Shown: piece after piece, positions 33,516 to 33,920 of the stretch
Layout: each line of letters opens with the position of its first letter
Position numbering within the stretch: position 1 is the stretch's first letter
From: Candidatus Terrybacteria bacterium RIFCSPHIGHO2_01_FULL_48_17
Lineage (GTDB): Bacteria > Patescibacteriota > Minisyncoccia > Terrybacterales > 2-01-FULL-58-14
Assembly: GCA_001822835.1 (NCBI GenBank)
Contig: MHSS01000013.1
Coordinates: 10,321 to 74,320, forward strand
DNA: 64,000 bases
Direction of reading: 5' to 3'
Position numbers and translations under genes: made by a program
The notes under the pieces: generated by a model
The model's input: only the letters and a program-made list of their open reading frames with translations
Database searches by the model: none
Told to the model about the DNA's origin: nothing

Positions 33516-33806
33516 ATGATAAAAATTAAACCTCTCGGTGACCGCGTGGTATTGGAGGCGGTCACGGAAGAGCAAAAGACAAAGTCGGGCATTTATCTTC
33601 CCGATACTGCAGATAAGGAAAAGCCGGAGCAAGGGAAAGTTGTTGCCGTGGGTCCCGGTAAAATGGAAGAAGGCAAGCGCATCCCGCTTGAGGTGAAAGT
33701 CGGGGATACGGTGCTTTTCACGAAATACGGACCCAATGAGGTAAAGGTCGATAATAAAGAATACCTTATTGCAAGGGAAGAAGACATCTTAGCTGTATTA
33801 GAATAA
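33516..33806 (+). CDS. groES: Co-chaperonin GroES
   Basis: [14 protein letters not shown]...[24 protein letters not shown] 96 aa. Confidence 0.93.
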
Positions 33807-33920
33807 ATCCCAATGTCAAAATCCCAATGTCAAATAAAATCTAAAATCCAAAATTCAAATTCGGAAATTGAGTCGTTGGATATTTATTTGACATTTGAGC
33901 TTTGAACTTTGGATTTTCAA
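33804..33920. repeat. Intergenic repeat family A, full-length copy between groES and groEL
   Basis: Tandem aaatcccaatgtcaaa x2 at the 5' end. The 3' arm atttatttgacatttgagctttgaactttggatttt is an imperfect inverted copy. Confidence 0.5.

What the first reader, a model, noticed from the sequence alone, without database searches (positions are those of the whole stretch)
33804..33920. Dispersed intergenic repeat family A (AAATCCCAATGTCAAA units)
- Full copies lie at 33804-33920 (groES/groEL spacer) and 10196-10315 (ssb/rpsR spacer); partial copies at 4926-4953 before mreB and 7070-7100 before a glycosyltransferase.
- Each starts with one or two tandem AAATCCCAATGTCAAA units and ends with an imperfect inverted copy (TTTGACATTTGAGCTT...GGATTTT), so each can fold into a long hairpin.
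- All copies sit immediately 5' of a start codon inside operons.
- That argues for a transcribed, translation-coupled element (an RNA structure or protein-binding site) rather than a random MITE insertion.
Basis: seen in the sequence. Interest (0 to 1): 0.6.

Follow-up and report, generated by a model that had tools for sequence, protein, structure and literature searches.

The report
Heptamer-built palindromic repeats between genes
A real family of about 110-base repeats, built from 7-base units and able to fold back on themselves, fills the gaps between neighbouring genes in this tiny groundwater bacterium; it most likely spreads as selfish DNA and is tolerated because the fold keeps one gene's stop next to the next gene's start.

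Summary
The repeat family is real. The motif has 10 hits against 1.3 expected. There are three full copies in the window: 33805-33919, 10197-10306 and 4849-4953. The last is a complete inverted copy, not a partial one. There is also a half array at 7080-7105, and a fourth full copy lies just outside the window. Arms are conserved and centres vary. Each copy runs from a stop codon to 5-8 nt before the next ATG.

The arms are arrays of 7/14-nt units. Family A is one of several such families in this Parcubacteria (CPR) genome and its relatives.

At the orthologous groES-groEL junction, 81 relatives have either a 0-7 nt gap or a long hairpin of unrelated sequence. One relative holds the same cassette twice. 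Sibling arrays sit in-frame inside uvrA and another ORF.

The paired end motifs of family A recur patchily in bins labelled CPR, Deltaproteobacteria, Planctomycetes and Calditrichia.

Sense and antisense strands fold equally well, and two copies fold no better than shuffles.

Best reading: non-autonomous palindromic repeat DNA, REPIN/MITE-like and built from STRR-like heptamers. It is co-transcribed and tolerated, and it may couple translation. Its mobilising enzyme and any function remain unknown. It matches no Rfam family.

The parts
33805..33919 (+). Family A copy A1. It fills the groES-groEL spacer. It has two tandem AAATCCCAATGTCA units and further 7-nt units (A/C-rich arm), a centre ..ATTCGGAAAT.., and a T/G-rich arm TTTATTTGACATTTGAGCTTTGAACTTTGGATTTTCA. 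The ATG is at 33925.
   Evidence: (I3: 34-nt arms, 79% complementary). Fold -28 kcal/mol, z -3.4 to -3.9. Lag-7 autocorrelation 0.53.
10197..10321 (-). Family A copy A2 in the ssb-rpsR spacer; the genes are on the minus strand. On the sense (minus) strand it reads: TAG, GC clamp hairpin CCGCGCTACACGCGG (10307-10321), A/C arm, centre GGTTCGCGCGTTCGG, T/G arm ..TTTGGCATTGGGATTTTCATAGCT, ATG (10191-10189). The AAATCCCAATGCCAAA motif lies on the antisense (+) strand.
   Evidence: D9, D15; S18, SSB. Fold -31 kcal/mol but z about -0.4.
4849..4953 (+). Family A copy A3. It is full length and inverted relative to A1, and it fills the murA-like/mreB spacer. The sense strand reads CCAATGCCCCAAGCTCAAATATCCAATTCGTCGAATTGG...ATTGGATATTGGGATTTTGACATTGGGATTTTCAC, then AAAATT, then ATG at 4960.
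   Evidence: (I1: 34 nt, 94% complementary to A1's left arm; I15). Fold -23 kcal/mol, z -0.6 to -1.3.
7080..7105 (+). Half element: a T/G-rich direct heptamer array TTTGGAT TTTGGGT TTTGGAT TTTTT, 4 nt upstream of the ATG (7110) of the second glycosyltransferase. It has no A/C arm and no hairpin.
9915..9954 (-). Sibling heptamer array (AATCAGA)n directly after the rpsR stop, followed by a terminator-like hairpin. In phase it reads NTYCTGA on the + strand, the same word as the Geobacter MTYCTGA repeats.
   Evidence: PMC2700814.
12258..12318 (-). Sibling family B array (CTNNNCC units; TAGGGTA/CAGGGTT on the + strand) abutting the ATG (12284) of ychF in a divergent spacer.
   Evidence: (D1-D3).
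16578..16611 (-). Sibling family B array CTATTCC CTGTTCC CTGGTTC CTATTCC CTCGTTTT, immediately upstream of the ATG (16575) of a class I tRNA synthetase.
35570..35606 (+). Family B-like array ACAGGGT TTAAGGT ATAGATA TCAGGGG ACAG directly after the groEL stop. The ortholog locus L126 has TAGGGAT TAGGGTC TAGGGTT at the same place.
36217..36348 (+). Sibling family C hairpin (CAAGATA/CAAGGCA units against TTGGTTA/TTGTATC) after the lemA stop, in the lemA-M48 peptidase spacer.
   Evidence: D6, I4, I6; dG -41, z -2.0.
56877..56990 (+). Second family C hairpin, starting at the stop of the Ni-SOD-like gene.
   Evidence: D6, I4, I6, I10; dG -31.6, z -2.8.
32407..32448 (+). Family B array in inverted orientation (CTGTACC CTGATGT CTGTACC CTG), in the ORF-poor region upstream of the gene starting around 32494-32506.
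   Evidence: (I7, I21).
30655..30706 (+). Family B 7/14-nt array inside a real ORF (30557-31540). It is translated as GVQGTGYRGQGIENR, at a linker that differs in the L004 ortholog.
27054..27089 (+). A 14-nt periodic array (GGATACGGGGGAAA GGATACAGGGGACA) inside uvrA. It coincides with a 12-aa insertion that is absent from the L007 and L008 orthologs.
   Evidence: (D4).

Best explanation
Family A is non-autonomous, quasi-palindromic repeat DNA. Each arm is an array of 7-nt words: NNNCAAA on one arm and TTTGNNN on the other, often paired into a 14-nt period. The arms flank a short, variable, often CG-centred core.

Family A is one of several such families in this Parcubacteria genome. It is a local example of a widespread but unexplained class of heptamer-repeat elements.

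Shown:
- Copies are dispersed and occur in both orientations.
- They occupy whole stop-to-start junctions.
- At a given junction they are gained, lost or replaced on short evolutionary time scales.
- A whole cassette can be copied within a genome.
- Related arrays also land in-frame in tolerant protein loops.

Inferred:
- Copies spread by copy-and-paste, through an unidentified enzyme or through ectopic recombination or template switching at microhomologies.
- The arms grow by slippage of 7-nt units, and hairpin-templated correction keeps them complementary.
- The copies are passively transcribed within operon mRNAs.
- They persist because the stem extrudes the insert. The upstream stop codon then sits at the 5' stem base and the downstream ATG a few nucleotides past the 3' base. 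A terminating ribosome that has melted the stem base can therefore still hand over to, or expose, the next start codon in a genome that mostly lacks Shine-Dalgarno sites.

Any regulatory effect, such as coupling, stoichiometry or mRNA processing, would be secondary.
For: Family reality and anatomy.

The 7/14-nt periodicity is specific:
- In the window there are 7 tracts at lag 7 and 8 at lag 14, against 0.05-0.15 in shuffles and 0-2 at other lags.
- In 670 kb of relatives there are 81 tracts at lag 7 and 51 at lag 14, against 4 and 2 in shuffles. Other lags give 6-33.
- Tract density is 47 per 100 kb in non-coding DNA and 6.3 in coding DNA, using crude gene calls.

Turnover at one orthologous junction (groES-groEL, 81 loci):
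- 19 spacers are at most 7 nt, 28 are at most 32 nt, and 50 are at least 45 nt.
- Of the 50 long spacers, 36 fold with z below -3. Unit sequences differ between genomes.

Copy-and-paste:
- L146 has the same roughly 125-nt cassette in the groES 5'UTR and in the groES-groEL spacer.
- That spacer copy matches the 5'UTR copy of L144 at 95.6% over 136 nt, while the flanking genes of the two loci are 82.5% identical.
- L144 has a different heptamer hairpin in its own groES-groEL spacer.

Coding insertions: uvrA has a 12-aa insertion at 27054-27089, and ORF 30557-31540 carries an array at 30655-30706.

No sense-strand advantage: the sense strand is more stable in 17 hairpins and the antisense in 16, Wilcoxon p = 0.42.

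Decay: A2 and A3 are not more stable than shuffles.

Patchy distribution with linked, non-complementary end motifs:
- The right motif ATTTGAGCTTTGA is present in 16 of 117 loci selected only by the left motif, against 1 of 84 loci selected by GroES.
- The left motif occurs in 4 of those 84.
- Full hairpin copies occur in bins labelled Moraniibacteria, Uhrbacteria, Desulfobacteraceae, Syntrophaceae, Planctomycetia and Calditrichia. The Calditrichia copy is on an 816-kb contig.
- Two copies in one Desulfobacteraceae contig look homologous through the loop when read side by side.

Geometry: the stem base lies a median 5 nt after the stop and 8 nt before the ATG.

Shine-Dalgarno-poor, leaderless-type genome: about 15 of 65 genes have an SD-like motif.

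No known RNA family matches.
Against: - No target-site duplication or sharp common terminus could be defined from about 20 copies.
- No transposase or RAYT-like gene appears among the Pfam hits on the called genes across about 84 kb of this genome.
- No presence/absence or length polymorphism could be observed, because all available strains are identical.
- All copies in this genome abut start codons, three of four of them in ribosomal-protein or chaperonin operons.
- The end motifs are conserved across very distant lineages, and the L146/L144 cassette is more conserved than the flanking genes. Both facts could reflect functional constraint instead of transfer.
- Hairpins at the junction show a polarity bias, with the A/C-rich arm first in 18 and the T/G-rich arm first in 6. 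A purely neutral DNA model does not predict this.
- The preference for 7 nt is unexplained.
Confidence: 0.55

Rival explanations
1. Dedicated cis-acting mRNA element. The intercistronic stem-loop is selected to couple translation of the downstream cistron to termination at the upstream stop, by stem melting or by a shunt-like transfer across the stem. Alternatively it serves as a double-strand RNase processing or stabilising site, or as a thermosensor. This would happen in an organism with few Shine-Dalgarno sites.
For: - The stem base is a median 5 nt from the stop and 8 nt from the ATG in 33 junction hairpins.
- All four copies in this genome end ..GGGATTTT(C/T)A-N5-8-ATG on the sense strand.
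- Most genes lack SD, and first genes look leaderless.
- A hairpin persists at the groES-groEL junction in most relatives despite complete sequence turnover.
- The same cassette is used both as the groES 5'UTR and as the groES-groEL spacer in L146, ending exactly at the ATG in both.
- There is a polarity bias, 18 against 6.
- RNase J is encoded nearby.
Against: - Sense RNA is not more stable than antisense (17 against 16).
- A2 and A3 are not significantly structured.
- 19 of 81 relatives manage with a spacer of at most 7 nt.
- The same word arrays occur without a partner arm (7080-7105, 9915-9954, 16578-16611), after terminal genes, and inside ORFs.
- Copies occur in both orientations.
- An insertion into a 1-7 nt junction gives the same geometry automatically.
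- The start codon itself is unpaired and there is no SD to sequester, so this is not a classical thermometer.
Confidence: 0.25
2. Binding platform for a protein that reads single strands in a 7-nt register. Candidates are cold-shock-domain, S1-like OB-fold or RRM proteins. Such binding to the T/G-rich (UUUGNNN)n arm would open or close the stem and tune initiation. This is the idea proposed for the TAACTGA and Nostoc heptamer repeats.
For: - There is a strict 7/14-nt register with a constant TTTG/CAAA core and 3 variable positions.
- Direct arrays abut start codons (7080-7105, 16578-16611, 12258-12318; groES 5'UTRs of L174, L189 and L134).
- The same words recur in distant phyla.
- The literature notes that CspB binds one heptamer per protein and proposes S1, Csp or CsrA for the TAACTGA repeats (PMC4679880). 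Nostoc heptamers near start codons affect expression (bioRxiv 10.1101/2022.06.06.494920).
Against: - No binding protein is identified.
- No CspA, CsrA or Hfq homolog was found in the 760 kb held. That covers only a small part of each genome, so it is uninformative.
- Many unrelated words (TACGAAT, AGACTAA, CAGGGTA, TAGCTTG) are used in sister genomes, which is hard to square with one specific reader.
- Arrays inside ORFs are not expected for a regulatory site.
Confidence: 0.12
3. Double-stranded DNA sites: arrays of heptad operators for a transcription factor or nucleoid protein (as with the TTTTGAT heptads at ctxAB or SARP heptamers), or cruciform-forming sites for gyrase- or IHF-like factors, as proposed for REP/BIME.
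For: - Folding is strand-symmetric.
- The elements have an AT-rich heptad structure, and TTGACA-containing words are common.
- Heptad operators are documented in other bacteria (titles and abstracts listed).
Against: - Most copies lie inside operons, away from promoters.
- The promoter-like scan is at or below chance.
- A 7-bp spacing does not keep sites on one face of the helix.
- Word sequences are not conserved between sister genomes.
Confidence: 0.06
4. Chance similarity between low-complexity, AT-rich spacers, or an assembly artefact.
For: The sequences are compositionally biased, and some single-motif hits (9383, 26671) lie in coding DNA and are at chance level.
Against: - The motif has 10 hits against 1.3 expected.
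- A 34-nt arm is shared at 94% between A1 and A3.
- Identical sequence appears in independent assemblies from at least 10 samples.
- The periodicity signal is specific to lags 7 and 14.
Confidence: 0.02

Closest known systems
REPINs / REP elements (REP doublets forming hairpins, mobilised by RAYT transposases; Bertels & Rainey 2011, PMC3116915, listed; mechanism from my own knowledge)
   Same: Both are non-coding, extragenic hairpins of about 100 nt made of two inverted short repeats. Both are dispersed in many copies within a genome, occur in both orientations and often lie between co-transcribed genes. Both behave as within-genome replicators without coding capacity.
   Different: REP stems are short (20-40 nt) and GC-rich, with no 7-nt periodicity. 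Here the arms are AT-rich heptamer arrays. No RAYT or Y1 transposase was seen in about 84 kb. REPIN families are tied to one lineage and its RAYT, whereas the end motifs of family A recur patchily across phyla.
Heptamer tandem repeats: cyanobacterial STRR (CCCCAGT etc., own knowledge), TAACTGA repeats of Beggiatoaceae, cyanobacteria and Bacteroidetes (PMC4679880), Nostoc TTTTGAA/TTCAAAA (bioRxiv 10.1101/2022.06.06.494920), Geobacter MTYCTGA and GGGACCG (PMC2700814)
   Same: All have a 7-nt unit, lie in intergenic DNA and often end within a few nt of a start codon. Several related words are mixed in one array. They show a patchy cross-phylum distribution and have no known mechanism. The window's array at 9915-9954 reads NTYCTGA like the Geobacter class, and a Planctomycetia locus carrying family A also carries CCCCAGT arrays.
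   Different: The described cases are mostly direct arrays, with one inverted case among 170 sets in BOGUAY. Here arrays of complementary words face each other and form hairpins of 70-130 nt that span whole intercistronic junctions. The host is a CPR bacterium, and I found no report of these repeats in CPR in the searchable literature.
Bacterial MITEs located in transcribed spacers (Correia/NEMIS, ERIC/IRU, RUP, BOX; own knowledge; review PMC3184786 listed)
   Same: Both are inverted-repeat elements of about 100-150 bp, non-coding and multi-copy, inserted between genes of operons and folding in the mRNA. They can alter processing, stability or translation of neighbours.
   Different: MITEs have defined terminal inverted repeats matching an IS, and they have target-site duplications. 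Neither could be shown here. MITEs do not have heptamer-periodic arms.
Rickettsia palindromic elements (RPE; own knowledge) and organellar hairpin repeats (for example sponge mitochondrial RHE, PMC2800124, listed)
   Same: These are selfish palindromic repeats in very compact genomes. RPEs are also found in-frame inside protein-coding genes at tolerant surface positions, as seen here for the sibling arrays in uvrA and ORF 30557-31540.
   Different: Family A itself was not found inside an ORF. RPEs are lineage-restricted and not heptamer-periodic.
Stem-mediated translational coupling and ribosome shunting or bypassing (MS2 coat/replicase, rpmI-rplT, CaMV 35S shunt, T4 gene 60; own knowledge). 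Intercistronic processing stem-loops (for example the cip-cel operon, PMC10311766, listed)
   Same: The geometry matches: a stop codon at the 5' foot of a stable stem and a start or landing site a few nt past the 3' foot.
   Different: This is a functional analogy only. Nothing here shows that translation or processing depends on the stem.

Membership tests
MITE | Short non-coding element present in multiple dispersed copies | tested here: met
   There are 4 full copies and 1 half copy in about 74 kb, and no ORF.
MITE | Defined terminal inverted repeats | tested here: inconclusive
   The arms are quasi-complementary (79% over 34 nt in A1). However, the conserved left end (AAAATCCCAATGYCAAA) and right end (ATTTGAGCTTTGA) are not each other's complement, and arrays often extend beyond them.
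MITE | Target-site duplication flanking each copy | tested here: not met
   No recurrent direct repeat was seen at the flanks of about 20 copies inspected. The termini are ill-defined, so this test is weak.
MITE | Cognate autonomous IS with matching ends | tested here: not met
   No transposase domain appears among the Pfam hits on the called genes in about 84 kb of this genome. The rest of the genome was not available.
REP / REPIN | Inverted pair of short REP sequences forming one hairpin, extragenic, many copies | tested here: met
   The arms are arrays rather than single REPs.
REP / REPIN | RAYT (Y1 transposase) gene flanked by the repeats | not testable with these tools
   None was seen in the sequence held. 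This needs the whole genome bin.
REP / REPIN | GC-rich 20-40 nt imperfect palindrome with a conserved 5' tetranucleotide | tested here: not met
   The arms are AT-rich, 35-50 nt long and heptamer-periodic.
Heptamer tandem repeats (STRR / TAACTGA class) | Tandem units of exactly 7 nt | tested here: met
   Lag-7 and lag-14 tracts number 7 and 8, against at most 0.15 in shuffles. TRF reports periods 7 and 14. Lag-7 autocorrelation is 0.39-0.53 in the copies.
Heptamer tandem repeats (STRR / TAACTGA class) | Intergenic location, frequently ending within a few nt of a start codon | tested here: met
   Compare PMC4679880.
Heptamer tandem repeats (STRR / TAACTGA class) | Same unit sequence as a described family | tested here: not met
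   The family A words (AATCCCA, ATGTCAA, AGCTCAA) are not among the published units, and a full-text search for the sequences found nothing relevant. A sibling array at 9915-9954 does match the Geobacter MTYCTGA class.
Rfam RNA families | Score at or above a family's gathering threshold | tested here: not met
   Only generic hairpin (miRNA-precursor) matches at 12-24 bits, against thresholds of 43-249.
Intrinsic terminator | GC-rich stem followed directly by a U-tract | tested here: not met
   No terminator-like site lies in the element. Canonical ones exist elsewhere, for example at 35607-35632.
RNA thermometer (ROSE / fourU type) | SD and/or AUG sequestered in the stem | tested here: not met
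   There is no SD, and the ATG is unpaired 5-8 nt past the stem.
CRISPR / TIGR-type arrays | Regular repeat-spacer alternation in a single array with associated genes | tested here: not met
   The elements are dispersed single hairpins with 7-nt periodicity, and no cas or tas genes appear in the Pfam tables.

The most novel reading that the evidence does not exclude
The heptamer hairpins could be a shared, cross-phylum system for reinitiating translation. In organisms that rely on leaderless or SD-less initiation, a stem built of 7-nt words would bridge the upstream stop and the downstream AUG. The terminating ribosome would then be handed across in a shunt-like way, or the mRNA would be cut in the stem to create a near-leaderless downstream cistron. 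The 7-nt words would be read by a conserved single-strand-binding factor. That would explain why the same words and paired end motifs recur in bins labelled CPR, Deltaproteobacteria, Planctomycetes, Calditrichia and ANME.
Probability: 0.1. Interest if true: 0.8.

Novelty: new variant of a known kind. Interest (0 to 1): 0.45.

Why it matters
Heptamer repeats near start codons have been noted for decades in cyanobacteria, and more recently in Beggiatoaceae, Bacteroidetes and Geobacter. No mechanism or function has been found for them.

This work shows three things. First, the same kind of repeat pervades streamlined CPR genomes. Second, there it takes a palindromic form that fills stop-to-start junctions. 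Third, one composite family recurs across very distant lineages.

This gives a compact system in which the open questions can be tested: why 7 nt, what moves or maintains the repeats, and whether they affect coupled translation in SD-poor genomes. The groES-groEL junction is a natural series of empty and filled sites for those tests.

There is also a practical side. These arrays cause gene-start miscalls and spurious small ORFs in CPR MAG annotation. In this window the mechanical ORF list places TTG starts inside the element at 33895, 7095 and 36295.

Tried and rejected
- Rfam, at gathering thresholds and at permissive E-values, gave no family.
- The promoter and terminator scan found nothing above chance in the element.
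- Phage and plasmid BLAST gave no match.
- The IMG/VR scan gave 40 hits. Nearly all are coding chance hits, such as cyanophage Fe-S proteins, and only one (L228) lies in a heptamer context. There is therefore no evidence for a viral vector.
- Strain-level polymorphism could not be assessed. All contigs of this species from at least 10 samples are 99.97-100% identical. The one apparent variant (L217) differs only at a contig end, probably an assembly artefact.
- I classified tract-bearing spacers as co-directional, convergent or divergent using my own crude ORF calls. I reject that result, because most 'convergent' and 'divergent' cases were spurious antisense ORFs inside groES-groEL spacers.
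- A search for target-site duplications found no consistent flanking repeat.
- tblastn with E. coli CspA, CsrA and Hfq against 760 kb of held CPR sequence gave no hit. Only a few kb per genome are held, so this is uninformative.
- P0004 (760 aa 'GroEL') turned out to be an actinobacterial locus and was ignored.
- A −35-like TTGACA inside the T/G arm does not pair with a usable −10 (and inspection).
- A covariance model was not built. The variable centres and 7-nt slippage make the alignment unreliable, and covariation would not separate RNA-level from DNA-level maintenance.
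Full report
**Source and context.** The window is part of a 92-kb contig from JGI metagenome 3300025323. Its GroEL is closest to proteins named Candidatus Azambacteria, Yanofskybacteria and Paceibacterota, so the organism is a Parcubacteria-type CPR/Patescibacteria bacterium. GC content is 48%.

The genes flanking the reported copies are:
- a murA-like gene and mreB;
- two glycosyltransferases;
- rpsF, ssb and rpsR on the minus strand;
- groES and groEL.

Most genes have no Shine-Dalgarno-like motif; only about 15 of 65 do. 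Many first genes have an extended −10 box (TGGTAnAAT) 6-10 nt before the ATG, so they look leaderless.

**Checking the observation.** AAATCCCAATGTCAAA with up to 3 mismatches gives 10 hits against 1.34 expected, and no shuffle reaches 10.

- A1 (33805-33919) overlaps the groES stop codon and ends 5 nt before the groEL ATG at 33925.
- A2 (10197-10306, plus a GC clamp hairpin to 10321) fills the ssb-rpsR spacer. The true rpsR start is the ATG at 10191-10189 on the minus strand, so the motif lies on the antisense strand there.
A3 begins 1 nt after the murA-like stop and ends 6 nt before the mreB ATG. Its arm is 94% complementary over 34 nt to A1's left arm.
- 7080-7105 is only a T/G-rich direct array with no partner arm and no fold.
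- A fourth full copy (A4) lies just upstream of the window, between rpmJ and rpsM (L210 7196-7354). It shares with A2 a GC clamp hairpin after the stop and the ending GGGATTTT(C/T)ATA(A)GCT-ATG.

Alignment shows conserved arms of about 22 and 20 nt and unrelated centres.

Hairpin stability is significant for A1 and A4 (z about −3.6). It is not significant for A2 (−0.4) or A3 (−1.3).

**Internal anatomy.** The arms are arrays of 7-nt words, often alternating to give a 14-nt period.
- One arm is A/C-rich: AATCCCA, ATGTCAA, ATGCCAA, AGCTCAA, ATTCAAA.
- The other is T/G-rich: TTTGACA, TTTGAGC, TTTGAAC, TTGGGAT.

A short core, often a perfect CG-centred mini-palindrome, sits between the arms.

In the window, tracts with at least 72% self-match number 7 at lag 7 and 8 at lag 14. 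Shuffles give 0.05-0.15, and all other lags from 4 to 16 give 0-2.

The tracts define sibling families:
- a CAGGGTA type at 12258-12318, 16578-16611, 32407-32448 and 35570-35606;
- a CAAGATA-type hairpin at 36217-36348 and 56877-56990;
- an (AATCAGA)n array at 9915-9954.

Two tracts lie inside real coding sequence. One is a 12-aa insertion in UvrA that is absent from two orthologs (27054-27089). The other is a variable linker in ORF 30557-31540 (30655-30706).

**Relatives and the orthologous junction.** I collected the groES-groEL junction from 81 loci. They came from GroEL homologs via contig look-ups and from a metagenome scan with GroES giving 80 loci at 66-80% identity.

Spacer lengths are bimodal: 19 are at most 7 nt, 28 are at most 32 nt, and 50 are at least 45 nt.

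Of the 50 long spacers, 36 fold with z below −3 into one long stem. That stem begins a median 5 nt after the stop and ends a median 8 nt before the ATG. About 21 have lag-7 autocorrelation of at least 0.45.

The word sequences differ from genome to genome: ATGCGAA, TACGAAT, AGACTAA, TAGCTTG, AAATCCG and others. Coding DNA between the window and its nearest relative is only 76-80% identical. Non-alignable spacers are therefore expected in any case. What needs explaining is that well-formed hairpins are present at all.

Across 670 kb of these relatives, lag 7 gives 81 tracts against 4 in shuffles, and lag 14 gives 51 against 2. Other lags give 6-33. Tracts are about 7-fold denser outside my crude ORF calls than inside them.

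Several related lineages share the first bases after the groES stop (TAA-AYTCCAAAAT-GC). They then carry direct arrays of different length, with or without a complementary arm. This points to growth in place.

Locus L146 carries the same roughly 125-nt cassette twice, once as the groES 5'UTR and once as the groES-groEL spacer. Both copies are bounded by TAGAATAA and by the ATG. The spacer copy matches L144's 5'UTR copy at 95.6% over 136 nt, while flanking genes of the two loci are 82.5% identical. L144 itself has a different heptamer hairpin in its groES-groEL spacer. This is direct evidence for copy-and-paste and replacement.

**RNA-level or DNA-level?** If the sense RNA stem were under selection, G·U pairs should make the sense strand more stable than the antisense. 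Among 33 distinct junction hairpins the sense strand is more stable in 17 and the antisense in 16 (Wilcoxon p = 0.42).

Family A copies occur in both orientations relative to transcription, in the window and elsewhere. Because the element is quasi-palindromic, the sense strand looks alike either way.

One strand-symmetric bias exists: the 5' arm is A/C-rich in 18 hairpins and T/G-rich in 6. Some of those loci are related, so I treat this as a weak trend.

**Distribution of family A.** Most hits are chance matches in coding DNA. About 25 lie in the same hairpin architecture.

Many of these carry the non-complementary right-end motif ATTTGAGCTTTGA. It is found in 16 of 117 motif-selected loci against 1 of 84 GroES-selected loci. 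The left motif itself occurs in only 4 of those 84.

By record title the carriers include:
- Moraniibacteria, Uhrbacteria and other Patescibacteria;
- Desulfobacteraceae, Syntrophaceae and other Deltaproteobacteria;
- 'Bdellovibrionales';
- Planctomycetes;
- Marinamargulisbacteria;
- a Calditrichia bin, on a contig of 816 kb;
- a Methanophagales bin.

Bin labels can be wrong, but the 816-kb contig cannot be a stray CPR fragment.

Within one Desulfobacteraceae contig, two copies look homologous through the loop when read side by side. That indicates duplication of whole elements.

Family A is thus a composite, patchily distributed family, and it is not a general Parcubacteria feature.

**Known families.**
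- Rfam gives nothing beyond generic hairpin matches far below threshold.
- There is no match in phage or plasmid collections, and there is no viral signal.
- Full-text searches found no report of these sequences or of such repeats in CPR.

Heptamer repeats near start codons are, however, documented and unexplained in other groups:
- Beggiatoaceae, cyanobacteria and Bacteroidetes (TAACTGA, PMC4679880);
- Nostoc (TTTTGAA/TTCAAAA);
- Geobacter metallireducens (MTYCTGA and GGGACCG).

The window's array at 9915-9954 reads NTYCTGA. A Planctomycetia locus with family A also carries CCCCAGT, which from my own knowledge is the cyanobacterial STRR1 unit.

The closest mobile analogue is the REPIN, a pair of inverted REPs forming a hairpin and mobilised by a RAYT (PMC3116915). 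No transposase of any kind appears among the Pfam hits for the called genes across about 84 kb of this genome. No target-site duplication could be defined.

**Interpretation.** The evidence fits non-autonomous palindromic repeat DNA built from heptamer arrays. It spreads and turns over within and between genomes, and it survives where insertions are tolerated. In a genome this compact, those places are stop-to-start junctions, 5'UTRs and a few protein loops.

The stem extrudes the insert and keeps the stop and start codons a few nucleotides apart in space. That would preserve termination-reinitiation or coupling in an SD-poor genome. This step is inferred, not shown.

I put this reading at about 0.55. 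A dedicated role in coupling, processing or thermosensing (0.25), or as a platform for a protein reading 7-nt units (0.12), remains possible. The points in favour of such a role are the constant position next to start codons, the polarity bias, the cross-phylum conservation of the end motifs, and the high conservation of the L146/L144 cassette.

Three things remain unexplained: why the unit is 7 nt, which enzyme or process copies the cassettes, and why the same composite words occur in such distant lineages.

**Limits.**
- Only about 84 kb of this genome and 2-20 kb of each relative were available.
- All strains of this species in the collections are identical, so no polymorphism could be read.
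- My own gene calls for relatives are crude, and I discarded the spacer-class analysis that depended on them.
- Taxon labels are those of the depositors.

Noticed in passing
window 45536-45840 (+): A tRNA-like gene (acceptor TCCGGGG...CCCCGGA, T-arm GTCGGTTCGAATCCGAC) is interrupted in the anticodon loop by a group I intron. Rfam RF00028 matches 45555-45803 at 46.5 bits, just under the gathering score of 50, with E = 2.6e-10. ARAGORN and the Rfam tRNA model did not call the gene.
   Followed up: partly
window 31541-33515: An ORF-poor, GC-rich stretch of 2 kb lies upstream of groES and is partly conserved with relative L004. It holds two hairpins of another repeat family (CTCYCTGCATTTATCATTC...GAATGCAGAGAGRGG, at about 31870-31945 and 33085-33145; also L004 4124-4174). 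Only one short ORF is called there (about 32494-32979), and no Rfam match was found.
   Followed up: partly
window about 33405-33435: A CIRCE-like inverted repeat, TTAGCAGTAAACACGTCGGACTGCTAA, lies between a promoter-like TTGACA...TATAAAT and groES. Clearer CIRCE copies (TTAGCACTC-N9-GAGTGCTAA) sit at the same place in many relatives, so groESL is probably HrcA-controlled.
   Followed up: no
window 27054-27089 (uvrA) and 30655-30706 (ORF 30557-31540): 7/14-nt periodic arrays lie inside coding sequence. The uvrA array is a 12-aa insertion that is absent from the L007 and L008 orthologs and differs in L004. The other sits at a linker that differs in the L004 ortholog. This resembles Rickettsia palindromic elements found inside genes.
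   Followed up: yes
whole window, gene starts: Only about 15 of 65 genes have an SD-like motif. Many first genes have an extended −10 (TGGTAnAAT) 6-10 nt upstream of the ATG, for example at 8238, 12345, 35668, 47700, 54078 and 57412. This suggests widespread leaderless mRNAs.
   Followed up: partly
L146 7775-7905 and 8195-8320; L144 7871-8006 and 8295-8435: In one relative the same roughly 125-nt hairpin cassette serves both as the groES 5'UTR and as the groES-groEL spacer. Its sister genome keeps the 5'UTR copy, which is 95.6% identical to L146's spacer copy while genes are 82.5% identical. The sister has a different (AAATCCG)n hairpin in the spacer.
   Followed up: yes
L135, L152, L172 (groES-groEL spacers of 190-230 nt); L162 and L206; L205 and L209: Some relatives carry larger, GC-rich, strongly structured inserts at the same junction (dG −75 to −101 kcal/mol). 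These share sequence blocks between genomes (for example ..CCCCGCACCAATTTTGGGGGG.. and ..GGCCTATTCGGCC..). They are a different kind of element that I did not identify.
   Followed up: no
groES-groEL spacers of L141, L144, L145, L147, L166, L168, L182, L184, L186, L187, L207: A short motif directly after the groES stop, TAA-AYTCCAAAAT-GC, is conserved across many lineages, although the downstream arrays differ. Two relatives (L168, L182) also share a small hairpin CTTTTGCGAAGCAAAAG-TTTT immediately before the groEL ATG.
   Followed up: no
window 33895, 7095, 36295, 56941 (TTG starts in the mechanical ORF list): The T/G-rich arms supply in-frame TTG codons. The longest-ORF starts for groEL, the glycosyltransferase, the M48 peptidase and the gene after 56876 therefore fall inside the repeats. 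The repeats are a source of gene-start miscalls in CPR annotation. rpsR was not called at all in assembly L210.
   Followed up: partly
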